Shown: positions 8,513 through 36,177, numbered from the stretch's first letter. The stretch is DNA of 38,051 nucleotides from Chloroflexi bacterium RBG_16_68_14 (GCA_001796995.1 MGOB01000041.1:17588-55638), one strand, 5' to 3'. Made by a program: numbers and translations. The notes: generated by a model not told the origin, from the sequence alone.

Positions 8513-8516
8513 CAGC

Positions 8517-16457: not shown

Positions 16458-16484
16458 TCAGTGACCTCTCCTTTTGCTCCTCAA

Positions 16485-21759: not shown

Positions 21760-22221
21760 ATGCCGGCTATCTATACACGTCCGTGGTACGACAACATGAA
21801 GGAGATCCTCAACCGCAGCGATGAGGTGACCAAGAACGCGCCCCGCGGGGTGTGGCACGTGCTGGCCGAGATCCGGGGCGACGGTGTCTCGCCCTACATG
21901 GCGGCTGATGAGGTGAAGCGCTTCGCTATCGTCCTCAATGACGGCAAGTGCGATAGCTACGAGGAGCTGACGGAGGCGCCGCCTCGCAAGGACTTCGAGT
22001 TCATCCTGGAGCTGCCCGCCGCCCTCTTCGAGCAGATCGTGGCCAATCAGACGGACCCGGTGGAGTCCGGCCTCAAGGGCGCCATCAAGATTATCGGCGA
22101 CATGCGGGTGATGATCCAGAATGCGGAGCTGGTGAATGTCCTCTCGGACATCTACCAGCGCGAGGTGGAGACGGAGTGGCCCAAGGGGATGCCCCCCTAC
22201 TCGACAGGAGGTGCGCGATGA
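21760..22221 (+). CDS. SCP2-like small protein
   Basis: 153 aa. DFEFILELPAALFEQIVANQTDPVESGLKGAIKIIGDMRVMIQNAELV fits the C-terminal SCP2 pattern (G-x-hydrophobic-K-hydrophobic-x-G-D). No signal peptide or TM segment. Confidence 0.55.
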   Translation: MPAIYTRPWYDNMKEILNRSDEVTKNAPRGVWHVLAEIRGDGVSPYMAADEVKRFAIVLNDGKCDSYEELTEAPPRKDFEFILELPAALFEQIVANQTDPVESGLKGAIKIIGDMRVMIQNAELVNVLSDIYQREVETEWPKGMPPYSTGGAR

Positions 22222-24995
22222 CGGAGGCAGGGCTCATGCTGAGCGCCCTCGGCCAGAAGGGGAGGGCGCGAGGCGCGTCCTACCGTTCCTGGGAAGACCT
22301 CTACCGCCGGAAGTGGACGTGGGATCGGGTGGTGAAGGGCACCTGCAACCGGGCCGACTGCATCGCCGCCTGTACCCTGAACCTCTTCGTCAAGGACGGC
22401 ATCGTCTGGCGGGAGGAGCAGAACGCCATGTACGCCCAGACCAACGCCTCGGTGCCGGACTTCAACCCCCGCGGCTGCCAGAAGGGCATGGTCTACAGCG
22501 ACCTGATGTACGACGCCACCCGCATCAAGTACCCCTTGCGCCGGGTGGGCGAGCGGGGCTCCGGCAAGTGGGAGCGCATCTCCTGGGAGGAGGCGCTGAC
22601 CGAGATCTCCGACAAGGTCATCGACGTCTGCCTGGAGGACGGGCCGGAGAGCGTCGTCTACGACTTCGGCACCACCAACTTGGACTTCGGGCCCGGCACG
22701 CCGGCCGAGCAGCACCTGTTCCAACTGGTGGGCACCAGCGCGCTGGACGAGTGGGCCGGCGTGGGCGACCTGCCCATGGGCGCCATCCAGACCTGGGGCC
22801 TCTTCAACGCTGACGGCACGTCCGATGACTGGTTCAACGCCGAGACGATCCTGGTCTGGCTGGGCAACCCCGTCTACACCCGGGTGCCGGACGTCCACTA
22901 CATGTGGGAGGCACGCTACAAGGGGGCCCAGATCATCACCATCGCGCCGGACTATAACGCCACCGTCGTCCACTCCGACCTGTGGGTGAACCTCCGGGTC
23001 GGGTCTGACGCCGCCCTCGCCCTGGCCATCTGTCAGGTCATCCTGGAGGAGGGGCTGATCAAGGAACGCTACGTCCAGGAGCAGACGGACCTGCCCTTCC
23101 TGCTGCGGGAGGACACCCGCCGCTTCCTCCGCCAGTCCGACCTCGTCGAAGGCGGCAAGGACAACGTCTTCTACTTCTGGGACCGCGCTACCAATTCGCT
23201 GCGGGAGGCGCCGGGGACGGCCGGCCAGCCAGAGCCGTCCATCGCCCTGGGCGACCTGGACCCCGCCCTGGAGGGCCGGTTCGAGGTGGAGCTCGCCACG
23301 GGCGAGCGGGTCTCCGTGCGCCCCGTCTTCGAGCTGCTGCGGGAGCGCCTGCGGGACTACACGCCGGAGCAGGCCGCCAAGATCACCGGCGTGAGCGCCA
23401 AGGTCATCCGCAGGCTGGCCCACCAGGTTGCGGCCAGCCCGGCGGTGCTGGTCTTCTGCTCGTGGGGCGCCTGCAAGCACTACCACATGGACCTCTTCCA
23501 GCGGGCCATCATCCTCATCCTTGCCCTCACCGGCAACACCGGCAAGCGGGGCGCCGGCATGCGCATCGGCGCCTGGTGGAACATGGCCCTCAGTTACAAC
23601 CGGAACATCGGGCGGATGATAGAGGCGCAGGGTCCCAGCGAGCGTCCGAAGGTGCGGGATCTCGAGGAGATGATGAAGTCGATGATGCGCGCCAACAGCC
23701 CGGTGTCGCCGACCATGGTCTGGCTGTACGCCCACGACGAGGGATACCGGAAGCTGGTCGATACCGACTCCTACCATGACCCCGATCTCCCCCGCCCGGT
23801 GGGAGAATATGTGCGGGAGGCGCTGGACAAGGGCTGGATGCCCCTGTACCCCAAGGAGGGCAAGCCGCCTAGGGTCTTCCTTTACACCGGCATGAACCCG
23901 CTGCGCCGCTGGCCGGCGCCCGACGTCATCCGCGAGAACCTCTGGGCGAAGCTGGAGCTCATCGTCACCTGGGAGTTCCGCATGTCCAGCTCGGCCATGT
24001 ACTCGGACATCATCCTGCCGGCGGCCGGCTGGCACGAAAAGTCCGGCATCAAGTTCTGCCAGAGCTACGTGCCCTACGTCTGCGTGGGCGAGAAGGCGGT
24101 GGAGCCCCTCTACGAGTCCAAGAACGAGTTCGACATCATGGCCCGCCTGGCGGCCACCCTCGAGCGGCGCGCCCGGGAGCGGGAGGAGGGCGAGTACACC
24201 GACGCCTTCGGTCGCGAGCACGACCTGCGGGAGATCGCCCGCCTCTGGAGCTTCGACGGCCAGTTCGGGGAGGGCGACGCCGAGAAGGCGCTGGGCGTGG
24301 CCTTCGAGCTGTCGGAGCCCATCGGCGATGTCACCTGGGAGGAGGCCGCTCGCGCCGGCGCTGTGCGGGTGACCAGCGGCGGCAGCTACGGGCCCATCAC
24401 CGCCATCACCAGCGACGTGCGCGTGGACGAGACGGTCTACCCCTGCGCCTGGTTCGTGGAGGGGAAGGAGCCGTGGCCCACCCTCACCGGCCGCCAGCAG
24501 TTCTACATCGATCACCCCTGGTACTTGGAGTTGGGGGAGGAGCTGCCGATGCACAAGGAGTCGCCGCCGGCCGGCGGCGACTATCCGCTCCGGATGACCG
24601 GCGGCCATACCCGCTGGAGCATCCACGCCATCTTCCGCTCCAACCGCACCCTGCTCCGGCTCCAGCGCGGCGGGCCGGTGATGTACGTCAGCCCGAAGGA
24701 CGCCGCAGCGCGCGGGCTGCAGGACCATGACGTGGCCTGGGTGCAGAACGACGTGGGCGGGTTCAAGGTCCACGTCAAGCTGGCGCCCGGCGTCCAGCCC
24801 GGGCAGGTGGTGATGTACCACGCCTGGGAGCCGTACCAGTTCGAGCGGTGGTCGGGGCAGCAGGCGGTCAACCCTTCGCCGTGGAAGCCCCTCCACCTGG
24901 TGGGCGATTACGGCCAGCTCCAGTACCGCTTCGCCCTGGCCCAGCCCAGCAACATCTCGCGGGCGATGACGGTGGAGCTGACGAAGACGAACTGA
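22218..24995 (+). CDS. Type II DMSO-reductase-family molybdopterin oxidoreductase, catalytic alpha subunit 1 (ethylbenzene/steroid-C25 dehydrogenase-like), no Tat leader
   Basis: Start placed at ATG 22218 (AGGAGG 6 nt upstream; ATGA overlap with the previous stop). Conserved SWEDLYRRKWTWD. FS0 motif C43-x4-C48-x3-C52 plus NPRGCQKG. Putative Mo-ligand Asp184 in GVGDLPMG (GAC at 22767-22769). About 925 aa. Confidence 0.88.
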   Translation: MTEAGLMLSALGQKGRARGASYRSWEDLYRRKWTWDRVVKGTCNRADCIAACTLNLFVKDGIVWREEQNAMYAQTNASVPDFNPRGCQKGMVYSDLMYDATRIKYPLRRVGERGSGKWERISWEEALTEISDKVIDVCLEDGPESVVYDFGTTNLDFGPGTPAEQHLFQLVGTSALDEWAGVGDLPMGAIQTWGLFNADGTSDDWFNAETILVWLGNPVYTRVPDVHYMWEARYKGAQIITIAPDYNATVVHSDLWVNLRVGSDAALALAICQVILEEGLIKERYVQEQTDLPFLLREDTRRFLRQSDLVEGGKDNVFYFWDRATNSLREAPGTAGQPEPSIALGDLDPALEGRFEVELATGERVSVRPVFELLRERLRDYTPEQAAKITGVSAKVIRRLAHQVAASPAVLVFCSWGACKHYHMDLFQRAIILILALTGNTGKRGAGMRIGAWWNMALSYNRNIGRMIEAQGPSERPKVRDLEEMMKSMMRANSPVSPTMVWLYAHDEGYRKLVDTDSYHDPDLPRPVGEYVREALDKGWMPLYPKEGKPPRVFLYTGMNPLRRWPAPDVIRENLWAKLELIVTWEFRMSSSAMYSDIILPAAGWHEKSGIKFCQSYVPYVCVGEKAVEPLYESKNEFDIMARLAATLERRAREREEGEYTDAFGREHDLREIARLWSFDGQFGEGDAEKALGVAFELSEPIGDVTWEEAARAGAVRVTSGGSYGPITAITSDVRVDETVYPCAWFVEGKEPWPTLTGRQQFYIDHPWYLELGEELPMHKESPPAGGDYPLRMTGGHTRWSIHAIFRSNRTLLRLQRGGPVMYVSPKDAAARGLQDHDVAWVQNDVGGFKVHVKLAPGVQPGQVVMYHAWEPYQFERWSGQQAVNPSPWKPLHLVGDYGQLQYRFALAQPSNISRAMTVELTKTN

Positions 24996-25010
24996 GAAAG
25001 GAGCACAGTC

Positions 25011-25661
25011 ATGCTGGTAAAGCGCGTCGACGCCAAGAAGGAGGAGCTGCTGGACCCGGCTGGCGCCGCCTGGCGCAAGAGCCGCGGTAGCAAGGTGGTC
25101 CTTTCGCCCACTCCCCTGGACATACAGCCGACGGAGTACGTCCGCGTCTCCTGGCGGGGACGCCCCTACGGCAAGGTCCCCAGCATGCGGGTGAGCGCCC
25201 TCCACAACGGCCGCGACATCTTCTTCCGCCTGGTGTGGGAGGACGATTCCGCGGACAGCAAGATCGCCGATACCAACCAGTTCGTGGACGCCGTCGCCGT
25301 GCTCTTCCCGATTGCCGCTGACGCCCCCCTCATCGGCATGGGGATCAAGGGGAAGCCGGTGAACGCCTGGTTCTGGCGCGCCGACTGGGAGCAACCGAAG
25401 AACGTGGCCGCCGAGGGCATGGGCACGACACAGCGTCGCGATGACCCCGCCCTCGCCGCCAAGGCACGGCACACGCGCGGCCAGTGGGACGTGGTCATCT
25501 CGCGCTCGCTGAACGGGAAGCGGGCGCCCAAGGGCACGGCGACCTTGCAGGCGGGCACGATATCCAAGATCGCCTTCGCCATCTGGCAGGGCGCCAACCA
25601 GGAGCGGGCCGGCATCAAGGCCTTCTCTCTGGACTGGCAGGAGCTACAGATCGAGGCGTAA
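25011..25661 (+). CDS. Heme-b gamma subunit (EB_dh / ethylbenzene-dehydrogenase gamma-like domain), no signal peptide
   Basis: 216 aa. MRVSALHNGRDIFFRLVWEDDSAD...DAVAVLFPIAADAPLIGMGIKGKPVNAWFWRADWE matches the EbdC/SerC/DdhC-type domain pattern, including the MG heme-ligand context. Confidence 0.75.
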   Translation: MLVKRVDAKKEELLDPAGAAWRKSRGSKVVLSPTPLDIQPTEYVRVSWRGRPYGKVPSMRVSALHNGRDIFFRLVWEDDSADSKIADTNQFVDAVAVLFPIAADAPLIGMGIKGKPVNAWFWRADWEQPKNVAAEGMGTTQRRDDPALAAKARHTRGQWDVVISRSLNGKRAPKGTATLQAGTISKIAFAIWQGANQERAGIKAFSLDWQELQIEA

Positions 25662-25679
25662 TAGAAAGCGAGGCTCCCC

Positions 25680-26744
25680 ATGGCTGAGCAGCAAGTTCAA
25701 CGGCAGGTGGCCTTCGTCTTCGACCTGAACAAGTGCCTGGGCTGCCAGACCTGCACCATCTCCTGTAAGACCCTCTGGACCGACCAGCCCGGCATGGAGT
25801 ACATGTGGTGGAACATCGTCAACACCATGCCCGGTCGGGGCACGCCCCGCGACCGCGACCAAATGGGCGGCGGCTTCGATGCGGGAGGGAACGCCCGGCC
25901 CGGCGTCCTGCCCAGCGCCGCTGACTTCGGCGAGGCCTGGGAGTTCAACTATGACGAGGTGTTCTACGGCGGCAAGGGCCAGTCCGCCTACCTCCACCCC
26001 CGTCGGCCGGGCACCAACGGCGTAGCGGAGGCACCGGACTGGGGCCCCAACTGGGACGAAGACCAGGGCGCCGGCGAGTACCCCAACAGCTACTACTTCT
26101 ACCTGCCCACCATCTGCATGCACTGCGCTAACCCCGCCTGCCTGGCGGCCTGCCCCCGCCAGGCCATCTTCAAGCGGGAGGAGGACGGCATCGTCCTCAT
26201 CGACGAGGAGCGGTGCGACGGCTATCGCTTCTGCATGGAGGCCTGCCCGTACAAGCGCATCTATTTCAACCAGCCCCGCTCCATCTCCCAGAAGTGCGTG
26301 GCGTGCTTCGCCCGGCTGGAGCAGGGCGTGGCCCCCGCCTGCGTCCGTCAGTGCCCCGGCCGCGTCCGCCACTTCGGCTACCTGGACGACCCGGAGAGCG
26401 ACGTACACAAGCTGGTGGAGGTGTGGAAGGTGGCGCTGCGGCTCCACCCGGAGTGGGGGACCAAGCCCAACGTCTACTACGTGCCTCCCCTCTCCCCTTA
26501 CCGCTTCGACGAGAACGGCGACATCGACGAAGCGAACTCGCGCATCCCGATGGAGTACCTGCGCTCCCTCTTCGGCCTGGAGGTGGATGGCGTCCTGGCC
26601 ACCCTCAAGGAGGAGATGGCCAAGGCGCGCCGCGGCGAGCGGTCAGAGCTGATGGACATCCTCATCGCCTACCGCTGGCAAGACATGTTCAAGCCCTTCG
26701 TCCAGGATCCGGGCGAGCTGGAGCGCCCACCGGTGAAAGCATGA
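25680..26744 (+). CDS. Fe-S beta subunit 1 (NarH/EbdB-like, four Cys clusters)
   Basis: 354 aa. Contains CLGCQTCTISCK, CMHCANPACLAACP, CDGYRFCMEACPYKRIYFN and CVACFARLEQGVAPACVRQCP. Confidence 0.92.
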   Translation: MAEQQVQRQVAFVFDLNKCLGCQTCTISCKTLWTDQPGMEYMWWNIVNTMPGRGTPRDRDQMGGGFDAGGNARPGVLPSAADFGEAWEFNYDEVFYGGKGQSAYLHPRRPGTNGVAEAPDWGPNWDEDQGAGEYPNSYYFYLPTICMHCANPACLAACPRQAIFKREEDGIVLIDEERCDGYRFCMEACPYKRIYFNQPRSISQKCVACFARLEQGVAPACVRQCPGRVRHFGYLDDPESDVHKLVEVWKVALRLHPEWGTKPNVYYVPPLSPYRFDENGDIDEANSRIPMEYLRSLFGLEVDGVLATLKEEMAKARRGERSELMDILIAYRWQDMFKPFVQDPGELERPPVKA

Positions 26745-27406: not shown

Positions 27407-27409
27407 GCA

Positions 27410-29178: not shown

Positions 29179-29181
29179 GCC

Positions 29182-32013
29182 ATGCCTGCTCGAACGAGAA
29201 GCACGACGAACGGGGGTGCAACGGAAGACCGCTACCGCCAGCGCTGGCGCTGGGACAGCGTCGCCTGGGGTAGCCACTGCGTGGACTGCTACCCCAGCAA
29301 CTGTCCCCACCGCGTCTACGTCCGCGACGGCAAGGTGGTGCGCGAGGAGCAGGCGGGCACCTTCCCCACCATCGAGCGGGACGTGCCGGACATGAACCCC
29401 GCCGGCTGCCAGAAGGGCGCCATGTGGAGCCAGATGCTCTACGGCCAGGAGCGCGTCCTCTACCCGCTGAAGCGTGTGGGGGCCCGCGGCTCGGGCAAGT
29501 GGCGGCGGGTCTCCTGGAACGAGGCGCTGACCGACATCGCCGACAAGCTCATCGACGCCATCCAGGAGGTGGGCCCGGAGTCCATCATCCGCATCGGCGA
29601 GCCGGCGGAGGGCGGCACCCAGGCGCTCATCTGCGGGGGCGCCATCGTCGGCCGGCTGGGTGGCATCACCACCGACGTCCAAGCGGAGATCAACGACTTC
29701 AGCCCCGGCCTCTATGTCACCTACGGCAAGTTCGACCCGGCCGCCAGCGTGGACGACTGGTTCCACTCTGAGCTGGTCCTCATCTGGCACTGCAACCCCA
29801 TCTACACCAACATCCCCTGGTACCACTTCGTGGCCGAGGCCCGCTACAACGGCGGGGAGGTCGCCCTCATCGCGCCCGACTACAGCCCCTCCGCCCTCCA
29901 CGCGGACATCTTCGCCCCGGTGCGGGTGGGCACCGACGCGGCGCTGGCCCTGGGGATGTGCCAGTTCCTCATCCAGGAGGGGCTCTACCACGCCGGCTTC
30001 GTCAAGGAGCAGACCGACCTGTCGCTGCTGGTGCAGCTGGATAACCAGCGCTTCCTCCGCGCCAAGGACGTGGACGGCGGCCGGGACGACCAGTTCTACT
30101 GGTTCGATACGAAGACCCAGCGCATCGTCGAGGCGCCCAGAGGCACCCTTGCCCTGGGGAACGTGGACCCGGCGCTGGAAGGGGAGTTCCAGGCCACCCT
30201 GGCCGACGGCTCCAAGGTACGGGTGACGCCGGTCTTCGCCCTGCTGCGCAAGCTGCTGGACCGCCACTACACGCCGGAGAAGGCCTCCAAGATCTGTGGC
30301 GTCCACCCGGACGTGATGCGGCGCATCGCGCGCACGGCGGCCCGCAAGCGCACCCGCATCCTCATGGGCTGGAACTCCGGCAAGTATTACCACGGCGACC
30401 TGATGGAACGGTCCATGGCCCTCTTCCTGGCCCTCACCGGCAACTGGGGCAAGAAGGGCACCGGCGCCCGCTCCTGGGCGGTGGGCATGTTCGAGGGGAT
30501 GTTCTCCACCCTGGCCAAGCCCAAGGCCGGCCCCGAGGCCGCCCGCCAGGTCTTCGAGATGCAGGACCAGATGATGGCCGTCCTCAAGGCGGAAGACCCC
30601 ACCATGACCGATGAGATCGCCGTGGCCGAGGCGGGCTACCGCGGCGCCCGCATGGGCGGCATGGTCCCCGCCGTCTTCTTCTGGTACTACCACTGCGGCT
30701 ACCGGGAGCGCTGGAACAAGAAGGAGTGGAACGACCCCAGCATGAAGCGCCCCTTCGATGACTACATCCGCGAGGGGATCGAGCGCGGCTGGTGGGAGGG
30801 CTTCCGCACGCCGGACGAGAAGACGCCGCCCCAGGTGATCTTCGAGATCGGCAGCAACGTGCTGCGCCGGAGCCGGGGCGGCCAGGACATCATGGTGCGC
30901 AACCTGTGGCCCAACCTTAAGCTCATCGTCACCATGGACTGGCGGATGAACACCACCGGTCTCTACTCGGACTACATCCTCCCGACGTCTCAGCACTACG
31001 AAAAGACCAACTTCTGCTATACCACGCCCCATGTCATGAACCTGACTCTCTCGGACAGGGCGGTGGCGCCGCTTGGCCAGGCCATGTCCGAATGGCAGAT
31101 CACCCTCGCCCTGGCCAAGAAGATCGAGCAGCGGGCCAAGGCGCGCAAGTTCCTCGAGTACCAGACCCGTGGCATGGCCATCCGCCTGGACAACGTCTAC
31201 GACACCCTCACCAAGGACGGGGCGCTGGCGGATGACGACCGGCTGATGGACGAGATGGTGCGCGACAGCGCCATCGCCGGCGTGCTGCCGAGGGGGACGA
31301 ACCTGGAGACGTTGCGCAAGAAGGGCTTCGTCCGCTTTATCAACTGGGGCCTGAGCTCCATGGCCCTGGCCCAGGCATCGGACCTGAGGTCGGACGAGGC
31401 CCACGCCCCCTTCCGCTGGCACACGGAGAAGAAGCTGCCCTTCCCCACCCTCACCCGCCGCGCCCAGTTCTACATCGACCACGACTGGTTCCTGGAGGCG
31501 GGCGAGGAGCTGCCGGTGCATAAGGAGACGCCCAAGCAGGGCGGCGACTACCCCTTCGTCCTCACCTCCGGCCACCCGCGCTGGAGCATCCACTCCATGA
31601 ACATGACCAACCGGATCATCCTGGAGACGCACCGGGGCCACCCCTTCATGTCCATGAACCCGAAGGACGCCCGCGCCCGCGGCATCGAGGACGACGAGGA
31701 GGTGCGGGTGTACAACGATGTCTCCTCCATCCAGATAGCGGTGAAGATCTCAGCGCTCGTCCGCCCCGGCCAGCTCATCATCTACAACGGCTGGGAGCCC
31801 TACCAGTTCCGCCAGTGGAAGGGCGCAGAGAACGTGGAGCCCGGCATGGTCAAGTGGCTGCACCTGGCGGGCGGCTACGGCCACCTCCGGTACCGCGGCA
31901 TCCACTGGCAGCCGGTGCCCATCGACCGCGCCATCCACCTGGATGTCGAGAAGATCCGTCCGAAGTCCAAGGCGAAGGCCGCCGCCAAGGCGGGCCGTCG
32001 CCGCCAGCGCTAG
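29182..32013 (+). CDS. Type II DMSO-reductase-family catalytic alpha subunit 2 (ethylbenzene/steroid-C25 dehydrogenase-like), no Tat leader
   Basis: 943 aa. SD GGAGGTG upstream. EDRYRQRWRWD. FS0 motif H32-x3-C36-x4-C41 plus NPAGCQKG. Putative Mo-ligand Asp172 in EINDFSPG (GAC at 29695-29697). Lys/Ala/Arg-rich C-terminal tail. Confidence 0.88.
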   Translation: MPARTRSTTNGGATEDRYRQRWRWDSVAWGSHCVDCYPSNCPHRVYVRDGKVVREEQAGTFPTIERDVPDMNPAGCQKGAMWSQMLYGQERVLYPLKRVGARGSGKWRRVSWNEALTDIADKLIDAIQEVGPESIIRIGEPAEGGTQALICGGAIVGRLGGITTDVQAEINDFSPGLYVTYGKFDPAASVDDWFHSELVLIWHCNPIYTNIPWYHFVAEARYNGGEVALIAPDYSPSALHADIFAPVRVGTDAALALGMCQFLIQEGLYHAGFVKEQTDLSLLVQLDNQRFLRAKDVDGGRDDQFYWFDTKTQRIVEAPRGTLALGNVDPALEGEFQATLADGSKVRVTPVFALLRKLLDRHYTPEKASKICGVHPDVMRRIARTAARKRTRILMGWNSGKYYHGDLMERSMALFLALTGNWGKKGTGARSWAVGMFEGMFSTLAKPKAGPEAARQVFEMQDQMMAVLKAEDPTMTDEIAVAEAGYRGARMGGMVPAVFFWYYHCGYRERWNKKEWNDPSMKRPFDDYIREGIERGWWEGFRTPDEKTPPQVIFEIGSNVLRRSRGGQDIMVRNLWPNLKLIVTMDWRMNTTGLYSDYILPTSQHYEKTNFCYTTPHVMNLTLSDRAVAPLGQAMSEWQITLALAKKIEQRAKARKFLEYQTRGMAIRLDNVYDTLTKDGALADDDRLMDEMVRDSAIAGVLPRGTNLETLRKKGFVRFINWGLSSMALAQASDLRSDEAHAPFRWHTEKKLPFPTLTRRAQFYIDHDWFLEAGEELPVHKETPKQGGDYPFVLTSGHPRWSIHSMNMTNRIILETHRGHPFMSMNPKDARARGIEDDEEVRVYNDVSSIQIAVKISALVRPGQLIIYNGWEPYQFRQWKGAENVEPGMVKWLHLAGGYGHLRYRGIHWQPVPIDRAIHLDVEKIRPKSKAKAAAKAGRRRQR

Positions 32014-32027
32014 CGAGGAGGTCTGTC

Positions 32028-33125
32028 ATGCCAGCGAGACGATCAGGGACTGCTCCCCTGAAGCAGGTGGCGATGGTCTTTGACCTGAACAAGTGCATGG
32101 GCTGCCAGACCTGTTCCGTCGGGTGTAAGGTGCTCTGGACCCAGGAGGAGGGCGAGGACTACCAGTGGTGGTGCTCGGTCAACACCATGCCTGGCCGCGG
32201 CTACCCCAAGGACTGGGAGGGAATGGGCGGCGGCGCCAGGCAGGACGGCCGCGCCCTCGCCGGTCGTCTGCCTTCGCGGGCGGAGTTCGGCGGCGGCTGG
32301 CAGTACAACTACGAGGAGGTGTACACCAGCAAGGAGCACATTCCCCTCCGGCCCATCGACGGCAACGGCACCACCCAGTGGGGCCCCAACTGGGACGAGG
32401 ACGAGGGCGGCGGCCGGTGGCCCAACAGCTACTTCTTCTACCTGCCCCGCCTGTGCAACCACTGCACCCGCCCTGTCTGCCTGGAGGCCTGCCCGCGCGG
32501 CGCCATGTACAAGCGCCCCAAGGACGGCATCGTCCTGCGGGACGAGGATGAGTGTCGGGGCTACCGCTTCTGCATGGAGGCCTGCCCCTACAAGAAGATC
32601 TACTTCAACCTGGCGCGGCAGGTGAGCCAGCAGTGCATCCTGTGCTTCCCGCGCCTGGAGAGAGGGGTGGCGCCGGCCTGCGCCCGCCAGTGCCCCGGCC
32701 GCCTCGTCTTCGTTGGCTACGTCGACGACGAGGATGGTCCCATCAACCAGCTGGTCTACCGCTGGCGGGTGGCGCTGCCGCTCCACCCGGAGTACGGCAC
32801 CGGCCCCAACATCTTCTACATCCCGCCCCTGGCGCCCTACCGGCTCAACGCCGACGGCAGCCTGGACGAATCGACGCCGCGCATCCCCATGCAGGAGCTG
32901 GAGCAGCTCTTCGGCCCCCAGGTGGGACGGGCGCTGGCCACCCTGAAGCGAGAGATCGCGAAGAAGCGACGCGGCGAGGCATCGGAGCTGATGGACACCC
33001 TCATCGCCTACCACTGGAACGAGCTGCTGGGCCCCTGGACGCGAGACCCGGCCACCATTCGCTGGCTTCGTCCTGAGGCTTCGTCCCGAGGCTCAGCCCG
33101 AAGGGCTCAGCCCGAAGGGCGCTGA
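32028..33125 (+). CDS. Fe-S beta subunit 2 (NarH/EbdB-like)
   Basis: Start placed at ATG 32028 (SD GAGGAGG). Contains VAMVFDLNKCMGCQTCSVGCK, CNHCTRPVCLEACP, CRGYRFCMEACPYKKIYFN and CILCFPRLERGVAPACARQCP. About 365 aa and colinear with beta1. Confidence 0.9.
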   Translation: MPARRSGTAPLKQVAMVFDLNKCMGCQTCSVGCKVLWTQEEGEDYQWWCSVNTMPGRGYPKDWEGMGGGARQDGRALAGRLPSRAEFGGGWQYNYEEVYTSKEHIPLRPIDGNGTTQWGPNWDEDEGGGRWPNSYFFYLPRLCNHCTRPVCLEACPRGAMYKRPKDGIVLRDEDECRGYRFCMEACPYKKIYFNLARQVSQQCILCFPRLERGVAPACARQCPGRLVFVGYVDDEDGPINQLVYRWRVALPLHPEYGTGPNIFYIPPLAPYRLNADGSLDESTPRIPMQELEQLFGPQVGRALATLKREIAKKRRGEASELMDTLIAYHWNELLGPWTRDPATIRWLRPEASSRGSARRAQPEGR

Positions 33126-33174
33126 GGCCCAAGGCGACGCCGCTTGCCGGGGCCTCAGCGTCAAGAGGGACGAG

Positions 33175-36100
33175 ATGTCACGTAAGCGCGAGCGGCAGCA
33201 GGACGCGGCCCCGGGCGGTGGAACGCCTCCGCTTCTGGGCCAGCCCGTCACCCGCCGGGGCTTCCTCAAGGGCGCCTCGCTGGGTGCGGCCGCCCTCTAC
33301 CTGACCCAGCTCGGCTGCCGGGGCGGCGAGGAAGGCATCCGCCGCGTCGTCGCGCAGCCCTACCTCTACGGCGACTGGACAGATCTCTACCGCCAGAAGT
33401 GGCGGTGGGACAAGGTCACCTGGGGCACCCACCTCATCGACTGCTACCCGGGCAGTTGCCTCTTCCGCGTCTACACCAAGGACGGCATGGTCTGGCGGGA
33501 GGAGCAGGCGGGCCGCTACCCGGAGATAGAGCCCGGCGTGCCCGACATGAACCCGCGCGGCTGCCAGAAGGGCTCCTGCTTCAGCGACGTCATGTACGGG
33601 CCGGAGCGGCTGCGCTACCCCCTGCGCCGGGTGGGCGAGCGGGGCTCCGGCCAGTGGGAGCGCATCTCCTGGAAGGAGGCGCTCACCGACGTGGCCGACG
33701 GCATCCTCGACGCCCTGGAGGAGGTGGGGCCGGAGTCCGTCATCTATGAACTCCCCCCCGGCAACGGCGGCATCGTCAACGGGCCGCTGCCCGGCTGGCG
33801 CCTCAGCCGGCTTATCGGCGCGACGGTGCTCGACTCCAACGGCATGGTCGGTGACTTCAACGTCGGCCTCTACGAGACCTTCGGCAAGTTCCAGTTCGTC
33901 TCCTCCATCGACGACTGGTTCCACGCCGACCTGATCCTGGTCTGGCACATGAACCCGGTCTACACCCGCATCCCCAGCGTCCACTTCGTCTACGAGGCGC
34001 GCTACCACGGGACGAAAGTGGTCAATATCGCTCCGGACTACAACGCCTCCAGCGTCCACGCCGACCTCTGGGTGCCAGTGGAGCCGGGCTCGGACGCCGC
34101 GCTGGCGCTGGCCATGTGCCGCATCATCATCGACGAGGGGTGGGTGAACCGGGAGTTCGTGGTGGAGCAGACCGACCTGCCCCTTCTGGTCCGCCTGGAC
34201 ACGCAGCGCTTCCTCCGCCAGACGGACCTGGCCGGCGAGGGCGAGGAGGCGCGCGACGACCAGTTCTACGTCTGGGATGAGGCGTCCGGCGGCCCCGCAC
34301 CCGCGCCCAGGGACACGTTGCGGATGAATGCGCGTCCAGCGCTGGAGGGGCGCTTCGCCGTCACCCTGGCCAGCGGCGAGCAGGTGGACGTGACACCCGT
34401 GTTCGAGCTCCTGCGCGAGCGTCTGGCCGACTACACGCCGGAGCGGGCGGCATCCATCACCGGCGTCCGGCCGTCGGTGATCCGGCGGCTGGCCCGGATG
34501 GTCGCCGAGGCGAAGCGGGTGCACATCCTCCAGGGCTGGAACGTGAACAAGTACTACCACGGCGACCTGATGGAGCGATCGCAGGCGCTCCTGCTCGCCC
34601 TCACCGGCAACTTCGGCCGCAAGGGCACCGGCATGCGCGGGTTCAACAGCGCCCAGCTCCAGGTGGGGACGGTGGTGAAGGACCATGCCGGCATCGAGGG
34701 GTTCATCGAGCTGGCCGACCGCGCGCTGGACGTCGAGGAGGAGCTGCTCCAGGAGGACCCGACGCTAACGGAGGAGATGCGCGCCATTGGCATTGAGCAG
34801 GCCGAGGCCCAGCGGCGGGTGCTCTTCCCCTACGACGTGGGGCCGCTGACGGTGCCCGCCGCCTTCTACTGGTACTGGCACGCCGGCTACAAGGACGTCT
34901 GGGACGGCCACCCCGACTGGTCGGACCCAGCCATGAATCGGCCGCTCGGCGAGTACCTCGACGAGGCGGTCTCGAAGGGCTGGTGGGAGGGCGTCGCCCT
35001 GCCGCAGAAGGACCGGCCGCCTCGCGTCCTCCTGGAGGTGGCCGTCTCCACGCTGCGCCGCACCCGGGGCGGCTACAAGGTCCTGCGCGAGCATCTCTGG
35101 CCCAAGCTCAAGCTCATCGTGGCCGTCGACGTGCGGATGAGTAGCACCGCCCGCCAGGCCGACATCGTGCTGCCGGCGGCCGGCTTCTACGAGAAGACGG
35201 ACTTCCGCTTCCCGGTCACGGACGTAAACTTCCTGACGTTCACCGAGCAGGCCGTCAAGCCGGTAGGACAGTCGAAGCCGGAGTGGGAGATCTTCACGCT
35301 GCTGGCCCGCAAGATCCAGGAGCGTGCCCTGGCCCGCGGCGTGACGAAGGCGTCCGACGCCGCCGGCCGCGAGTTCCCGCTCGACAAGCTGGTGGAACGG
35401 TTCACCATGCACGGCGCGGTGCGCGAGCGCGACGGCGACGCCCTGGCCGAGGACATCGTGCGGGACACGGTGCGGGTGGGCGCGCTGCCGGAGCGGACAA
35501 CGCTCAAGACCTTCCGGAAGCAGGGCATCGTCCGCTTCACCGGCCTGGGGCAGACCGGCGGGGGCCTCAACCTCGCGACCGACATCAAGCCCGACGAGAC
35601 GGTGTCGCCCCTGCGCTGGCACGGCGAGCGGCAGGTGCCCTACCCAACGCTTACCCGTCGCATCCAGTTCTACATCGACCATGATTGGTTCCTGGAGGGG
35701 GACGAGGCGCTGCCCCGTCACAAGCCCAACCCCCAGATGGGGGGCTCGCACCCGCTGCGCATGACCAGCGGCCACCTCCGCTGGAGCATCCACTCTACCT
35801 GGGTGGCGAACAGGCTGATGCTCTACACCCACCGGGGCGGACCGTTCCTCATGATGTGCCCGGAGGATGCAGAGGCGAGAGGGCTCGCCGACAACGACGA
35901 GGTGCGTGTCTACAACGACTTCGACGAGTTTCGCGTGCGCATCAAGCTCTCGCCGTCCGTGCGGCCTGGCCAGGTGATCATCTACCATGCCTGGGAGCCC
36001 TACCAGTACCGCAACTGGAAGCCGTACGATACGGCGATACCGGGCATGATCAAGTGGCTGCACCTGGCGGGCGGCTACGGCCACCTGAAGTTCTGGCGCG

Positions 36101-36177
36101 ACAACTGGCAGCCCCAGCAGGCGGACCGCGCCATCGCGGTCGAGGTGGAGAAGGCGGCCGGGGAGGGAGCGGTCTAG
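33175..36177 (+). CDS. Type II DMSO-reductase-family catalytic alpha subunit 3 with a twin-arginine (Tat) signal peptide
   Basis: 1000 aa. Leader reads ...GQPVTRRGFLKGASLGAAALYLTQLGC. Then WTDLYRQKWRWD. FS0 motif H86-x3-C90-x4-C95 plus NPRGCQKG. Putative Mo-ligand Asp227 in VGDFNVG (GAC at 33853-33855). By eye it is closest to alpha2. Confidence 0.9.
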   Translation: MSRKRERQQDAAPGGGTPPLLGQPVTRRGFLKGASLGAAALYLTQLGCRGGEEGIRRVVAQPYLYGDWTDLYRQKWRWDKVTWGTHLIDCYPGSCLFRVYTKDGMVWREEQAGRYPEIEPGVPDMNPRGCQKGSCFSDVMYGPERLRYPLRRVGERGSGQWERISWKEALTDVADGILDALEEVGPESVIYELPPGNGGIVNGPLPGWRLSRLIGATVLDSNGMVGDFNVGLYETFGKFQFVSSIDDWFHADLILVWHMNPVYTRIPSVHFVYEARYHGTKVVNIAPDYNASSVHADLWVPVEPGSDAALALAMCRIIIDEGWVNREFVVEQTDLPLLVRLDTQRFLRQTDLAGEGEEARDDQFYVWDEASGGPAPAPRDTLRMNARPALEGRFAVTLASGEQVDVTPVFELLRERLADYTPERAASITGVRPSVIRRLARMVAEAKRVHILQGWNVNKYYHGDLMERSQALLLALTGNFGRKGTGMRGFNSAQLQVGTVVKDHAGIEGFIELADRALDVEEELLQEDPTLTEEMRAIGIEQAEAQRRVLFPYDVGPLTVPAAFYWYWHAGYKDVWDGHPDWSDPAMNRPLGEYLDEAVSKGWWEGVALPQKDRPPRVLLEVAVSTLRRTRGGYKVLREHLWPKLKLIVAVDVRMSSTARQADIVLPAAGFYEKTDFRFPVTDVNFLTFTEQAVKPVGQSKPEWEIFTLLARKIQERALARGVTKASDAAGREFPLDKLVERFTMHGAVRERDGDALAEDIVRDTVRVGALPERTTLKTFRKQGIVRFTGLGQTGGGLNLATDIKPDETVSPLRWHGERQVPYPTLTRRIQFYIDHDWFLEGDEALPRHKPNPQMGGSHPLRMTSGHLRWSIHSTWVANRLMLYTHRGGPFLMMCPEDAEARGLADNDEVRVYNDFDEFRVRIKLSPSVRPGQVIIYHAWEPYQYRNWKPYDTAIPGMIKWLHLAGGYGHLKFWRDNWQPQQADRAIAVEVEKAAGEGAV

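What the first reader, a model, noticed from the sequence alone, without database searches (positions are those of the whole stretch)
22218..36177. Mixed predicted localisation: alpha1, alpha2 and gamma lack export signals, alpha3 has a textbook Tat leader, and there is only one gamma and two betas for three alphas
Seen in the sequence: alpha3 starts with MSRKRERQQDAAPGGGTPPLLGQPVTRRGFLKGASLGAAALYLTQLGC (RR codons at 33253-33258). Alpha1 (MTEAGLMLSALGQKGRARGASYRSWEDLYRRKWTWD) and alpha2 (MPARTRSTTNGGATEDRYRQRWRWD) reach the conserved mature-domain motif after 20-30 residues that are not signal-like. Gamma (MLVKRVDAKKEELLDP...) has no hydrophobic leader. Alpha3 directly follows beta2 and has no beta, gamma or chaperone gene of its own. 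Established knowledge: characterised EBDH-type enzymes are Tat-exported periplasmic alpha-beta-gamma complexes. Inference: either two cytoplasmic EBDH-like enzymes coexist with one exported enzyme, or subunits are shared and hitch-hike (beta2 with alpha3, gamma with several alphas). A cytoplasmic heme-b EBDH-type enzyme would need a different electron acceptor from the usual periplasmic cytochrome c. The leader ends in LTQLGC, which is lipobox-like but not canonical, so alpha3 could be a Tat lipoprotein.
Basis: partly seen in the sequence, partly recalled or inferred. Interest (0 to 1): 0.7.

Follow-up and report, generated by a model that had tools for sequence, protein, structure and literature searches.

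The report
Exported and non-exported EBDH-type hydroxylases together
One operon of an uncultured Chloroflexota bacterium encodes three molybdenum hydroxylases of the ethylbenzene-dehydrogenase type, of which two have lost the export signal that every studied member carries and one has kept it, so this enzyme type probably works on both sides of the cell membrane with shared helper subunits.

Summary
The window comes from MAG Chloroflexi bacterium RBG_16_68_14. It encodes alpha1-gamma-beta1-delta, MobB/FmdE, MobA, alpha2-beta2 and alpha3.

- **Leaders:** only alpha3 has a Tat leader (TRRGFLK, RR at 33253-33258). In-frame stops and Shine-Dalgarno sites leave no room for leaders on alpha2, gamma or beta1. 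The upstream extension of alpha1 is not conserved in orthologues.
- **Not an artefact:** none of 120 alpha2 homologues and none of about 90 alpha2-like genes in 84 loci has a real Tat leader. All alpha1 orthologues in Chloroflexota lack one. Alpha3-like genes have one in 20 of 20 loci.
- **Evolution:** a tree indicates two independent losses. Alpha1 keeps the LxLxxL tail of the ancestral leader, much like NarG's remnant signal.
- **Ordinary features:** EbdC itself has no leader, and having fewer beta/gamma than alpha genes is known from Sterolibacterium.
- **New points:** the mixed cluster is conserved in about 20 MAG loci, some with one beta and one gamma for three alphas. Alpha3 is always coupled to an NCS1-like permease, and alpha1 to an SCP2-like carrier.
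- **Weak point:** the lipoprotein idea has little support.

Localisation is inferred from sequence, not measured. I rate this a new variant of a known kind.

The parts
18024..19610 (+). CtmA / delta24-steroid-desaturase-like flavoprotein subunit. The ORF opens at 17787; the likely start is ATG 18024.
   Evidence: Pfam Amino_oxidase, DAO and NAD_binding_8. It carries GFLHNVHC, which fits the covalent-FMN motif G-F-L/R-x-N/S-T/L-H-A of CtmAB and delta24-SD (PMC11061730). It is syntenic in L004 and L006.
19598..20137 (+). SCP2-like small protein 1, without a leader
   Evidence: Pfam SCP2 at 24.2 bits against a cutoff of 21.3. Its homologue directly follows the leaderless alpha1 in 10 loci of the second architecture.
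20127..21746 (+). CtmB / delta24-SD-like flavoprotein subunit
   Evidence: Pfam hits. The motif GFHHNLHA is present. It is syntenic in related loci.
21760..22221 (+). SCP2-like small protein 2, without a leader. Its stop overlaps the alpha1 start as ATGA.
   Evidence: Pfam SCP2 at E 4e-4, just below the cutoff. It sits directly upstream of alpha1 in 7 related loci, at 72-84% identity.
22218..24995 (+). Alpha1: Mo-bisPGD catalytic subunit with no Tat leader. It keeps a remnant LxLxxL N-terminal peptide and has an all-Cys FS0 motif (C-x4-C-x3-C).
   Evidence: TIGR03479 at 962 bits, matching from profile position 39. EbdA 2ivf_A at E 1e-181, with EbdA Asp223 aligned to a conserved Asp. All 48 closest homologues are leaderless. 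The remnant peptide is shown in the alignment, and the His-to-Cys change.
25011..25661 (+). Gamma: EbdC-type heme b subunit, without a leader. It is the only gamma in the window.
   Evidence: TIGR03477 at 178 bits against a cutoff of 170. 2ivf_C at E 2.5e-42, aligned 2-213 to 2-211, with the Met and Lys at the positions of EbdC Met108 and Lys201 conserved. An in-frame stop lies 5 codons upstream.
25680..26744 (+). Beta1: Fe-S cluster subunit, without a leader
   Evidence: TIGR03478 at 505 bits against a cutoff of 481.
26741..27406 (+). Delta: NarJ/EbdD-type assembly chaperone, the only one in the window
   Evidence: TIGR03482 at 172 bits against a cutoff of 152, and Pfam Nitrate_red_del. The start was located.
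27410..28525 (+). MobB-FmdE-zinc-ribbon fusion protein (cofactor maturation)
   Evidence: Pfam MobB, FmdE and zf-dskA_traR. It is conserved next to gamma/delta in more than 20 loci.
28522..29178 (+). MobA (molybdenum cofactor guanylyltransferase)
   Evidence: Pfam NTP_transf_3 and NCBIfam MobA models, the latter below their cutoffs.
29182..32013 (+). Alpha2: Mo-bisPGD catalytic subunit with no leader and a basic Lys/Arg-rich C-terminal tail
   Evidence: TIGR03479 at 941 bits, matching from profile position 45. The ATG lies one codon after an in-frame stop. None of 120 homologues has a Tat leader. About 90 alpha2-like genes in 84 loci lack a Tat leader in the whole upstream open frame. The tail is shown.
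32025..33125 (+). Beta2: second Fe-S cluster subunit, without a leader. It is absent from some orthologous clusters.
   Evidence: TIGR03478 at 480.0 bits against a cutoff of 480.7. It is missing between alpha2 and alpha3 in L003, L005, L008, L009 and L021.
33175..36177 (+). Alpha3: Mo-bisPGD catalytic subunit with a Tat leader (residues 1-48, bases 33175-33318; RR at 33253-33258)
   Evidence: TIGR03479 at 991 bits against a cutoff of 985, matching from profile position 1. The motif is TRRGFLK. Alpha3-like genes carry a Tat leader in 20 of 20 loci, and 103 of 115 homologues do; the rest are truncated or alpha2-like.
36177..37622 (+). 12-TM NCS1-like permease. Its GTG start overlaps the alpha3 TAG stop by 1 nt.
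   Evidence: Sequence at the junction. It follows alpha3 in every locus where sequence extends far enough (17 loci plus the window); in at least one of them (L085) a CN_hydrolase gene lies between the two. A profile of 12 homologues matches Mhp1 at E 4.5e-4 over 355 positions. Pfam Transp_cyt_pur reaches only 14.9 bits against a cutoff of 23.5.

Best explanation
The cluster is a catabolic operon for a hydrophobic, probably isoprenoid-, steroid- or alkyl-chain-type substrate. It encodes three paralogous EBDH/S25DH-type, water-dependent Mo-bisPGD hydroxylase catalytic subunits that are sorted to different compartments.

**Exported enzyme (alpha3).** Alpha3 is loaded with cofactors in the cytoplasm with the help of the single delta chaperone. 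It binds a beta, and probably the gamma. Its intact twin-arginine leader then carries the complex across the membrane, the usual hitch-hiker route of EBDH. Its gene is translationally coupled to an NCS1-like permease, which I infer moves the substrate or the hydroxylated product across the membrane.

**Retained enzymes (alpha1 and alpha2).** Both have lost the leader in evolution, in two separate events. No subunit of theirs has any export signal, so they stay on the cytoplasmic side. Alpha1 keeps the last part of the old leader (LxLxxL). I infer that this is a docking site for the delta chaperone, as in NarG. Alpha1 is also coupled to a leaderless SCP2-like lipid carrier, which could hand it the hydrophobic substrate.

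**Shared subunits.** Beta, gamma and delta are drawn from a common pool, so the same gamma/beta gene products would end up on both sides of the membrane.

**What is shown and what is inferred.** Shown: gene content, presence or absence of leaders, their conservation, synteny and phylogeny. Inferred: actual localisation, subunit pairing, the role of the permease, the substrate and the cytoplasmic electron acceptor.
For: - **Family assignment:** all subunits are assigned by profiles.
- **No room for leaders:** shown directly by the sequence.
- **Alpha1 homologues:** P0001-P0048 (at least 62% identity, Chloroflexota) are all leaderless. P0051 onward (59% or less) carry SRRxFL leaders.
- **Alpha2 homologues:** none of 120 has a leader.
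- **Alpha3 homologues:** 103 of 115 have a Tat leader; the rest are truncated or alpha2-like.
- **Start-codon-independent scan of 84 loci:** about 90 alpha2-like genes lack Tat (three regex hits are untranslated upstream sequence). Alpha3-like genes have Tat in 20 of 20 loci. Alpha1-like genes are leaderless in 17 Chloroflexota loci and Tat-bearing in Binatia and others. Every gamma next to these genes starts like EbdC.
- **Tree:** a neighbour-joining tree gives ((leaderless alpha1, Tat-bearing sisters), (Tat-bearing alpha3, leaderless alpha2)), each group monophyletic. This implies two losses.
- **Remnant leader:** the N-terminal alignment shows the RRxFLxxxG half deleted and LxLxxL retained.
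- **Synteny:** the mixed cluster recurs in L003-L011, L017-L025, L037, L062 and L067. L003, L005, L008 and L021 have three alphas with one beta and one gamma in the operon.
- **Coupled partners:** alpha3-permease coupling and alpha1-SCP2 coupling.
- **Precedents:** shared beta/gamma subunits (PMC6016249), a remnant Tat peptide on non-exported NarG (PMC10609526), and steroid side-chain oxidation alternating between periplasm and cytoplasm (PMC7411048).
- **Context:** CtmAB/delta24-SD-like flavoproteins, an SCPx-type thiolase, acyl-CoA dehydrogenases, CoA transferases and a ModABC-like transporter lie nearby (PMC11061730).
Against: - No localisation data exist for any member of these clades, and all relatives found are from MAGs.
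- The EBDH heme b (+256 mV) and Mo centre are tuned to a high-potential periplasmic acceptor (PMC8840923). No cytoplasmic acceptor is evident in the window.
- Subunit pairing is not determined. In other loci alpha2 has its own gamma and beta, or only a beta, so sharing is not universal.
- SignalP, TatP and LipoP were not available. Leader calls rest on motif and hydrophobicity rules.
- The permease assignment is weak: it is below the Pfam cutoff, and the single-sequence AlphaFold2 model was unusable (pLDDT 49).
- Hitch-hiking of alpha1 or alpha2 on an unknown signal-bearing partner encoded elsewhere cannot be excluded.
Confidence: 0.7

Rival explanations
1. All three enzymes act outside the cytoplasm. 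Alpha1 and alpha2 would be exported without a leader of their own, either by riding on a signal-bearing partner (alpha3 or a protein encoded elsewhere) or through an unrecognised signal.
For: - Tat hitch-hiking of leaderless subunits is normal in this family; EbdB and EbdC do it.
- All characterised relatives are periplasmic and use high-potential acceptors (PMC10100899, PMC8840923).
- Alpha1, alpha2 and alpha3 are co-transcribed in about 20 loci.
Against: - No alpha-alpha complex is known for EBDH-type enzymes.
- Most alpha2-like loci have no alpha3-like gene within 8 kb.
- No beta, gamma, delta, SCP2 or flavoprotein in the cluster has a signal.
- The stepwise decay of the leader and its loss in two separate clades are what relaxed selection for export would produce.
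- Alpha1 is coupled to a leaderless SCP2-like carrier.
Confidence: 0.12
2. Alpha1 and alpha2 face the cytoplasm but are not soluble enzymes using the shared heme b gamma. They would be membrane-associated alpha-beta(-gamma) modules that pass electrons to the quinone pool through a membrane partner, in the manner of NarGHI.
For: - In the Binatia locus L001 the leaderless gamma gene is coupled to a 160-aa cytochrome b561-type membrane protein (PF01292, 30.7 bits against a cutoff of 30.1).
- Many beta-alpha2 pairs have no gamma within 8 kb.
- Alpha2 and its close orthologues carry a polybasic C-terminal tail that could bind the inner leaflet.
- The precedent is NarGH docking on NarI.
Against: - No cytochrome b gene lies in the window or in the Chloroflexota loci examined.
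- Alpha1 is directly followed by gamma and beta in the window.
- The function of the tail is pure inference.
Confidence: 0.25
3. The leaderless forms are artefacts: wrong start codons, frameshifts, assembly errors or decaying pseudogenes.
For: - The window is a metagenome-assembled contig.
- NCBI itself called a different start for alpha3 (P0241, 980 aa).
Against: - In-frame stops immediately upstream of alpha2, gamma and beta1, and strong Shine-Dalgarno sites.
- The same N-termini occur in independent assemblies from NCBI, JGI, ENA and Logan.
- Full-length conservation at 60-87% identity, with the Mo-ligand Asp and the FS0 cysteines invariant.
Confidence: 0.02
4. Alpha3 is a Tat-exported lipoprotein, or is held by an uncleaved leader, rather than being a soluble exported enzyme.
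For: - LYLTQLGC[RS]GG is invariant in the 11 closest orthologues.
- No Ala-x-Ala peptidase site is evident.
- Tat-bearing alpha1-like sisters often end in L(Q/E)(F/L)(A/G)C.
- Chloroflexota are generally regarded as single-membrane cells, which need to anchor exported enzymes (my own knowledge).
Against: - Gln at position -3 breaks the canonical lipobox pattern (recalled from memory).
- Relatives at about 65% identity have LSLTRLGF, with Phe in place of Cys. LTxLG therefore looks like a leader motif rather than a lipobox.
- The window's ModA-like binding protein has a signal peptide without a lipobox Cys.
Confidence: 0.25

Closest known systems
Ethylbenzene dehydrogenase EbdABC(D) of Aromatoleum aromaticum (PDB 2IVF)
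   Same: - It has the same four-gene module: a Mo-bisPGD alpha, an Fe-S cluster beta, a heme b gamma with Met/Lys ligands, and a NarJ-type delta.
- The Mo-ligand Asp (EbdA Asp223) is conserved.
- Gamma and beta have no leader.
- Alpha3 has a Tat leader like EbdA.
   Different: - None of the window proteins reaches the EbdA/B/C/D equivalog cutoffs (for example 646-848 bits against 2000), so they are not orthologues.
- Alpha1 and alpha2 lack the Tat leader.
- Alpha1 has Cys instead of His as the first FS0 ligand.
- There are three alphas for one gamma.
Steroid C25/C26 dehydrogenases (S25DH1-4, S26DH1-3) of Sterolibacterium denitrificans
   Same: - Many alpha paralogues are present with fewer beta/gamma genes, and sharing of beta/gamma has been proposed and exploited experimentally (PMC6016249).
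- They are linked with a CtmAB-like delta24 desaturase and with side-chain beta-oxidation (PMC11061730).
- The pathway alternates between the two sides of the membrane (PMC7411048).
   Different: - All S25DH and S26DH alphas carry Tat leaders and are assigned to the periplasm (PMC7411048). The cytoplasmic steps there use different enzymes (a kinase and a lyase).
- Here the Mo hydroxylases themselves are split between the two sides.
Respiratory nitrate reductase NarGHJI
   Same: - It is a type II DMSO-reductase-family enzyme that stays in the cytoplasm.
- NarG keeps a remnant Tat peptide that binds the NarJ chaperone (PMC10609526, citing Ize et al. 2009).
- The alpha1 N-terminus looks like the same kind of remnant.
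   Different: - NarG is about 1250 aa and scores only 230-300 bits against the window alphas.
- Nar uses a membrane di-heme NarI, not an EbdC-type heme b subunit.
- No NarI-like gene is present in the window.
Putative anaerobic alkane hydroxylase AhyABC of Desulfococcus oleovorans Hxd3 and other EBDH-like genes found in metagenomes
   Same: They are uncharacterised EBDH-like enzymes, proposed from genomes alone to hydroxylate aliphatic chains (PMC3653055; bioRxiv 10.64898/2026.01.09.698600).
   Different: - I had no AhyA sequence for comparison.
- The papers I could search say nothing about its leader or location (one search found no paper that mentions both AhyA and twin-arginine).

Membership tests
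DMSO reductase family type II enzymes (TIGR03479 alpha, TIGR03478 beta, TIGR03477 gamma, TIGR03482 chaperone) | Profile match at the curated cutoff for each of the four subunits | tested here: met
   bits against cutoff:
- alpha3: 991 against 985
- alpha1: 962, and alpha2: 941. Both fall just below only because profile positions 1-38 and 1-44 (the leader) are absent.
- beta1: 505 against 481
- beta2: 480.0 against 480.7
- gamma: 178 against 170
- delta: 172 against 152
DMSO reductase family type II enzymes | Asp ligand to Mo, and an N-terminal FS0 cluster motif with His as first ligand (H-x3-C-x3-5-C ... C) | tested here: met
   - The Asp aligned with EbdA Asp223 is invariant in all three alphas.
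- Alpha2 and alpha3 have H-x3-C-x4-C.
- Alpha1 has C-x4-C-x3-C, that is His replaced by Cys. This holds in 47 of 47 leaderless alpha1-like proteins, against His in 66 of 66 Tat-bearing sisters.
- The feature is therefore met with a variation in alpha1.
Ethylbenzene dehydrogenase proper (NCBIfam equivalogs NF042978-NF042981) | Score at or above the equivalog cutoff | tested here: not met
   bits against cutoff:
- alphas: 646, 848 and 844 against 2000
- betas: 480 and 422 against 740
- gamma: 182 against 400
- delta: 108 against 360
EBDH/S25DH-type periplasmic hydroxylases | Twin-arginine leader on the alpha subunit, giving periplasmic or extracytoplasmic location | tested here: not met
   - Met for alpha3 (TRRGFLK plus an h-region).
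- Not met for alpha1 and alpha2, in the window and in their whole clades.
- Actual location cannot be tested with these tools.
EBDH/S25DH-type periplasmic hydroxylases | Heme b gamma subunit with Met/Lys axial ligands and no signal peptide of its own | tested here: met
   - Alignment to 2ivf_C runs 2-213 to 2-211.
- The Met and Lys aligned with EbdC residues 108 and 201 are conserved.
- The identity of those residues as the heme ligands is recalled from the EBDH structure paper and agrees with PMC8840923, which states Met/Lys ligation.
EBDH/S25DH-type hydroxylases | Water-dependent hydroxylation of an alkyl C-H bond; identity of the substrate | not testable with these tools
   Only the gene context is available: CtmAB-like flavoproteins, two SCP2-like proteins, an SCPx-type thiolase and acyl-CoA dehydrogenases.
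Remnant Tat signal peptides on non-exported molybdoenzymes (NarG type) | The N-terminal peptide is homologous to a Tat leader, has lost its export function and binds the NarJ-family chaperone | tested here: inconclusive
   - Homology is supported. The alpha1-clade N-termini align with the C-terminal half of the sister clade's leaders.
- By a strict pattern, LxLxxL is kept in 28 of 48 leaderless proteins and 65 of 69 Tat-bearing ones. Another 15 of 48 have xRRL/KRL variants.
- Chaperone binding was not tested.
- Alpha2 has no such remnant.
Bacterial lipoproteins | Lipobox [LVI][ASTVI][GAS]C at the end of the signal peptide | tested here: not met
   - Alpha3 has T-Q-L-G-C, and Gln at position -3 and Leu at position -2 do not fit the pattern as I recall it.
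- The Cys is conserved only in the 11 closest orthologues and in 2 of the more distant relatives.
NCS1 (nucleobase-cation-symport-1 / Mhp1) transporters, for the protein at 36177-37622 | Profile match to the family | tested here: inconclusive
   - Pfam PF02133 gives 14.9 bits against a cutoff of 23.5.
- A profile of 12 homologues matches Mhp1 (4d1a, 2jln) at E 4.5e-4 over 355 positions.
- The AlphaFold2 single-sequence model was too poor to use (pLDDT 49).
CtmAB limonene dehydrogenase / delta24-steroid desaturase flavoenzymes, for 18024-19610 and 20127-21746 | Two adjacent paralogous subunits of about 60 kDa, each with the covalent-FMN motif G-F-L/R-x-N/S-T/L-H-A | tested here: inconclusive
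   - The two adjacent paralogues carry GFLHNVHC and GFHHNLHA, which compare well with the motif given in PMC11061730.
- No reference sequences were available for a direct comparison.

The most novel reading that the evidence does not exclude
EBDH-type molybdenum hydroxylases are not exclusively periplasmic. A large, uncultured-only radiation in Chloroflexota/Dehalococcoidia, Binatia and Deltaproteobacteria-type MAGs has lost the Tat leader at least twice and works in the cytoplasm. In clusters like this one, a single beta/gamma/delta set serves both an exported paralogue and cytoplasmic paralogues, so the same heme b and Fe-S subunits are dual-localised. The exported enzyme, its coupled NCS1-like permease, the SCP2-like carriers and the cytoplasmic enzymes would then form a trans-membrane hydroxylation relay for a hydrophobic isoprenoid- or steroid-like substrate. 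The cytoplasmic enzymes would use an electron outlet other than cytochrome c.
Probability: 0.4. Interest if true: 0.75.

Novelty: new variant of a known kind. Interest (0 to 1): 0.6.

Why it matters
Oxygen-independent C-H hydroxylation by EBDH-type enzymes is thought to need a very oxidising Mo centre and a high-potential periplasmic acceptor such as cytochrome c. Every studied member is Tat-exported.

**Consequences of a cytoplasmic branch**
- A different electron route would have to exist, either a quinone reached through a membrane partner or an unknown soluble carrier.
- The energetics assumed for anaerobic hydrocarbon, terpenoid and steroid activation would change.
- It would give a natural example of shared redox subunits being partitioned between compartments according to which catalytic subunit they bind.

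**Practical value**
- Metagenome surveys that score 'EBDH-like/AhyA-like' genes as periplasmic hydrocarbon hydroxylases would need to distinguish the leaderless clades.
- Leaderless enzymes could be easier to produce heterologously for biocatalysis, for example 25-hydroxyvitamin D3-type hydroxylations.

**Evolution**
- The two independent leader losses, one of which leaves a remnant peptide, repeat the path proposed for NarG.

Tried and rejected
- **Upstream alternative starts.** Alpha1's GTG 22176 adds 'DRRCAM', but the h-region is too short and interrupted by Glu. The extension is not conserved, and in orthologues it is cut by stops. Rejected.
- **Three 'Tat' hits among alpha2-like genes.** My regex flagged L033, L075 and L079. 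These lie in untranslated upstream sequence without a start codon or hydrophobic region. False positives.
- **Two apparent 'no Tat' calls.** L037 (alpha3-like) and L056 (alpha1-like) were misses of my filter. Both have clear RRxFL leaders on inspection.
- **AlphaFold2 of the permease from a single sequence.** Mean pLDDT was 49, so the model was unusable and I ran no fold search. An alignment could not be submitted because the loci-derived homologues are not accepted by that tool.
- **Exact-sequence look-up of alpha2** found nothing. The source was identified through the homology search instead.
- **Literature searches** for a described cytoplasmic or leaderless EBDH-like enzyme found none. The library lacks most subscription-journal papers, including the main EBDH reviews, so this absence is weak evidence.
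- **Rfam scan for a Moco riboswitch or other regulatory RNA** found only a tRNA.
- **Search for a membrane cytochrome b** like that of Binatia locus L001 in the window and the Chloroflexota loci: none found.
- **Taxonomy look-up of the MAG name** failed.

Full report
**1. What is there**

The window is high-GC DNA. Alpha1 is 100% identical to a protein of the MAG 'Chloroflexi bacterium RBG_16_68_14', and the same holds for alpha2 and alpha3.

On the + strand the gene order is:
- CtmA-like flavoprotein, 18024-19610
- SCP2-like protein, 19598-20137
- CtmB-like flavoprotein, 20127-21746
- SCP2-like protein, 21760-22221
- alpha1, 22218-24995
- gamma, 25011-25661
- beta1, 25680-26744
- delta, 26741-27406
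- MobB-FmdE-zinc-ribbon fusion, 27410-28525
- MobA, 28522-29178
- alpha2, 29182-32013
- beta2, 32025-33125
- alpha3, 33175-36177
- a 12-TM protein, 36177-37622

These assignments rest. Profiles place the four structural genes firmly in the type II DMSO-reductase family. They are nearest to EBDH but far below the EbdABCD equivalog cutoffs. The best solved relatives are EbdA and EbdC of 2IVF, and PcrA. The Asp aligned with EbdA Asp223 is conserved, as are the Met and Lys aligned with EbdC residues 108 and 201.

**2. Check of the observation**

Every statement of fact in the finding holds.
- **Alpha3** carries T-R-R-G-F-L-K, with the RR codons at 33253-33258, followed by 16 uncharged residues ending in LTQLGC.
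- **Alpha2** starts one codon after the in-frame MobA stop and has a GGAGGTGA Shine-Dalgarno site. No leader can exist.
- **Gamma and beta1** each have an in-frame stop five codons upstream.
- **Alpha1** has an AGGAGGTG site 5 nt before ATG 22218, which overlaps the upstream stop. The only possible extension, GTG 22176, adds 'DRRCAM'. The following uncharged stretch is only 10 residues, and the extension is neither conserved nor open in orthologues.
- **Subunit count:** a BLAST of all window ORFs finds three alphas, two betas, one gamma and one delta.
- **Profile coverage:** the TIGR03479 profile is matched from position 39 in alpha1, 45 in alpha2 and 1 in alpha3.

**3. Is the leaderless state real?**

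Yes, and it is a property of whole clades.
- The 48 closest homologues of alpha1 (62-87% identity, Chloroflexota/Dehalococcoidia) are all leaderless. From 59% identity downward (Binatia, Deltaproteobacteria and others) the homologues carry SRRxFL leaders.
- All 120 best homologues of alpha2 (59-84% identity; Chloroflexota, Binatia, Deltaproteobacteria) are leaderless.
- Of 115 alpha3 homologues, 103 have Tat leaders. The rest are truncated or belong to the alpha2 clade.

To remove any dependence on gene calling, I translated the complete upstream open frame of every alpha-like gene in 84 fetched loci. The results were:
- about 90 alpha2-like genes without Tat; the three regex hits are untranslated sequence;
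- alpha3-like genes with Tat in 20 of 20 loci;
- alpha1-like genes leaderless in 17 Chloroflexota loci and Tat-bearing in the Binatia-type loci.

A neighbour-joining tree of 118 sequences gives ((leaderless alpha1 clade, Tat-bearing sisters), (Tat-bearing alpha3 clade, leaderless alpha2 clade)), each group monophyletic. This points to two independent losses.

An alignment of N-termini shows how alpha1 lost its leader. The RRxFLxxxG half was deleted, and the end of the h-region, LxLxxL, was kept as the new N-terminus (M-TEAG-LMLSALG against ...AFLALSLGNLQL). This closely parallels the remnant Tat peptide of NarG, which serves as the NarJ binding site (PMC10609526). Alpha2 has no such remnant.

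**4. Which parts of the finding are ordinary**

- **A leaderless gamma.** The window gamma aligns residue 2 to residue 2 with the 214-residue EbdC and from position 1 of both gamma profiles. In the EBDH lineage gamma and beta are carried out by the alpha leader. All gammas next to these genes in 84 loci start the same way, M-x-x-K-(R/K)-V. The only exception accompanies an unrelated Tat-bearing enzyme in L031.
- **Fewer beta/gamma than alpha genes.** Sterolibacterium denitrificans has eight alpha paralogues and fewer beta/gamma genes. S25DH1 is alpha1-beta3-gamma3 there, and alpha2-4 were produced with beta3/gamma3 (PMC6016249).

**5. What is not ordinary**

Every characterised member of the EBDH branch is described as Tat-exported and periplasmic (PMC10100899 Table, PMC7411048, PMC8840923). 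This covers EBDH, p-cymene dehydrogenase, S25DH, S26DH and also Ddh, Ser, Clr and Pcr. I found no paper describing a leaderless or cytoplasmic EBDH-type enzyme. The searchable library is incomplete, so this is weak evidence.

The genome-collection scan returned 534 relatives. The best 79 loci all come from MAGs, with no cultured organism among them.

The mixed arrangement is conserved. Two architectures recur in about 20 species-level MAGs:
- ctmA-scp-ctmB-scp-alpha1-gamma-beta-delta-mobB/fmdE-(mobA)-alpha2-(beta)-alpha3-permease
- mobB/fmdE-gamma-delta | alpha1-scp on the opposite strand | alpha2-gamma-beta-alpha3-(CN_hydrolase)-permease-beta

In L003, L005, L008 and L021 the operon holds three alphas, one beta and one gamma. 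There the shared-subunit reading is hard to avoid, and the same beta/gamma products would have to serve an exported alpha and non-exported alphas.

A Binatia locus (L001) shows the same mixture. It has one Tat-bearing alpha, one leaderless alpha, two betas, one leaderless gamma and one delta. It also has a cytochrome b561-type membrane protein coupled to gamma.

**6.

- **Alpha3 and the permease.** In the window the alpha3 TAG stop overlaps by one base the GTG start of a 481-aa, 12-TM protein. A homologue follows alpha3 in all 17 loci where sequence extends far enough; in at least one (L085) a CN_hydrolase gene sits between them. A profile of 12 homologues matches the NCS1 transporter Mhp1 (E 4.5e-4, 355 positions), although Pfam stays below its cutoff. 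One homologue (L011) carries a C-terminal Rieske domain.
- **Alpha1 and an SCP2-like carrier.** Leaderless alpha1 is always adjacent to a leaderless SCP2-like protein, upstream in one architecture and downstream in the other.
- **Wider context.** The cluster also holds a CtmAB/delta24-steroid-desaturase-like flavoprotein pair with the covalent-FMN histidine motif (PMC11061730), an SCPx-type thiolase, two acyl-CoA dehydrogenases, CoA transferases, an HdrD-like Fe-S protein and a ModABC-like transporter. This points to catabolism of a hydrophobic isoprenoid-, steroid- or alkyl-chain-type compound.

**7. Most likely mechanism**

- **Shown:** one alpha has an intact Tat leader. Two alphas and all accessory subunits have none. 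These states are clade-wide, the cluster is conserved, and the beta/gamma/delta genes are fewer than the alpha genes.
- **Inferred:** alpha3 with beta (and gamma) is assembled with delta and exported by hitch-hiking. Alpha1 and alpha2 with beta (and gamma) stay on the cytoplasmic side. The permease links the two sides by moving the substrate or the hydroxylated product. The SCP2-like proteins present the hydrophobic substrate to the cytoplasmic enzymes. The retained LxLxxL peptide of alpha1 is the delta docking site.

The idea of a pathway that alternates between the two sides of the membrane has a precedent in anaerobic cholesterol side-chain oxidation (PMC7411048). There, however, the cytoplasmic steps are not catalysed by Mo hydroxylases.

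The main unsolved point is the cytoplasmic electron outlet. EBDH's heme b sits at +256 mV and is thought to reduce cytochrome c (PMC8840923). Nothing in the window supplies an equivalent inside the cell. The b561-type gene in the Binatia locus and the polybasic C-terminal tail of alpha2 orthologues hint at a membrane/quinone route, but that is speculation.

**8. Rivals**

- **Export of alpha1 and alpha2 by piggy-backing** cannot be excluded without experiments. It is disfavoured because most alpha2-like loci lack an alpha3-like neighbour, no other signal-bearing partner is present, and the leader decayed independently twice.
- **Artefact or pseudogene explanations** are refuted.
- **The Tat-lipoprotein idea for alpha3** is weak. 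The Cys is invariant only among the closest orthologues. Relatives at about 65% identity have LSLTRLGF. The motif fails the canonical lipobox, and the window's own solute-binding protein is not a lipoprotein. An uncleaved leader acting as an anchor remains possible, since no Ala-x-Ala site is visible.

**9. Verdict**

The finding is real and goes beyond annotation noise. It is not a new kind of enzyme. It is a new variant of the EBDH/S25DH kind, with leaderless catalytic subunits that are probably cytoplasmic, co-encoded with an exported paralogue and sharing accessory subunits. The variant is widespread in uncultured Chloroflexota, Binatia and Deltaproteobacteria-type MAGs. Localisation, subunit pairing, substrate and electron acceptor all remain to be measured.

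Noticed in passing
window 22344-22373 (alpha1 residues 43-52, GTCNRADCIAAC): The first ligand of the FS0 iron-sulfur cluster is His in type II enzymes but Cys in alpha1. All 47 leaderless alpha1-like proteins have Cys, and all 66 Tat-bearing sister proteins have His, so the change coincides with loss of the leader.
   Followed up: partly
window ~31951-32010 (alpha2 C-terminus, KIRPKSKAKAAAKAGRRRQR): Alpha2 and its nine closest orthologues carry a 20-30-residue Lys/Arg/Ala-rich C-terminal tail. It is conserved in composition but not in sequence, and more distant alpha2-like proteins, alpha1 and alpha3 lack it. It may bind the membrane or nucleic acid; its function is unknown.
   Followed up: partly
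window 36177-37622; L011 15726-17549: A 12-TM NCS1-like protein is translationally coupled to alpha3, with its GTG start overlapping the TAG stop by 1 nt. It is conserved after every alpha3-like gene. The L011 homologue has a C-terminal Rieske [2Fe-2S] domain fusion (CPH...CPGHG), which is odd for a pure transporter.
   Followed up: partly
window 18024-19610 and 20127-21746: Two adjacent paralogous FAD/FMN oxidoreductases carry the histidine motif of covalent-FMN limonene dehydrogenase CtmAB and delta24-steroid desaturase (GFLHNVHC and GFHHNLHA). This suggests allylic oxidation of an isoprenoid chain (PMC11061730).
   Followed up: partly
window 19598-20137 and 21760-22221: Two leaderless SCP2-like (sterol-carrier-type) small proteins are present. 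One overlaps both flavoprotein genes, and the other overlaps the alpha1 start. A homologue directly follows alpha1 in the second cluster architecture.
   Followed up: yes
window 27410-28525: A MobB-FmdE-DksA/TraR-type zinc-ribbon fusion protein is conserved next to gamma/delta in more than 20 related loci. The role of the FmdE domain in maturation of Mo enzymes is unknown.
   Followed up: no
L001 15278-15760 (Binatia MAG, GCA_026004195.1): A 160-aa, 4-TM cytochrome b561-type protein (PF01292, 30.7 bits against a cutoff of 30.1) has its stop overlapping the start of the leaderless gamma gene. This is a possible membrane/quinone outlet for an EBDH-like complex. It is absent from the window and from the Chloroflexota loci.
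   Followed up: partly
L004 14053-16890: In one orthologous cluster a 945-aa protein with a cupredoxin (Copper-bind) domain plus NHL-type beta-propeller repeats is inserted between beta2 and alpha3. It is a candidate extracytoplasmic electron acceptor for the exported enzyme.
   Followed up: no
window 1585-2877: A tyrosine-recombinase (phage integrase family) gene at 1585-2724 is followed directly by tRNA-Arg(CCT) at 2801-2877. GC content is lower in the first 2 kb (0.64). This looks like the edge of an integrated element to the left of the catabolic cluster.
   Followed up: no
window 6532-9293 (- strand): A ModABC-like ABC transporter lies upstream of the Mo-enzyme cluster: a binding protein of the SBP_bac_11 type, a permease and an ATPase. 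The binding protein has a Sec-type signal peptide without a lipobox cysteine.
   Followed up: partly
window 15630-17708 (- strand); L001, L046, L069, L074: A thiolase (Thiolase_C_1, SCPx-type) and a nitroreductase-family protein sit side by side in the window. The same pair recurs next to alpha2-like genes in Binatia and other MAGs, which suggests a conserved functional link.
   Followed up: no
L003 and L005 (- strand, 16.3-22.9 kb): Next to the orthologous clusters lie a fourth leaderless alpha2-like gene with its own beta and two radical-SAM/SPASM proteins, and CN_hydrolase and alpha/beta-hydrolase genes follow the permease. In L085 a CN_hydrolase also lies between alpha3 and the permease.
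   Followed up: no
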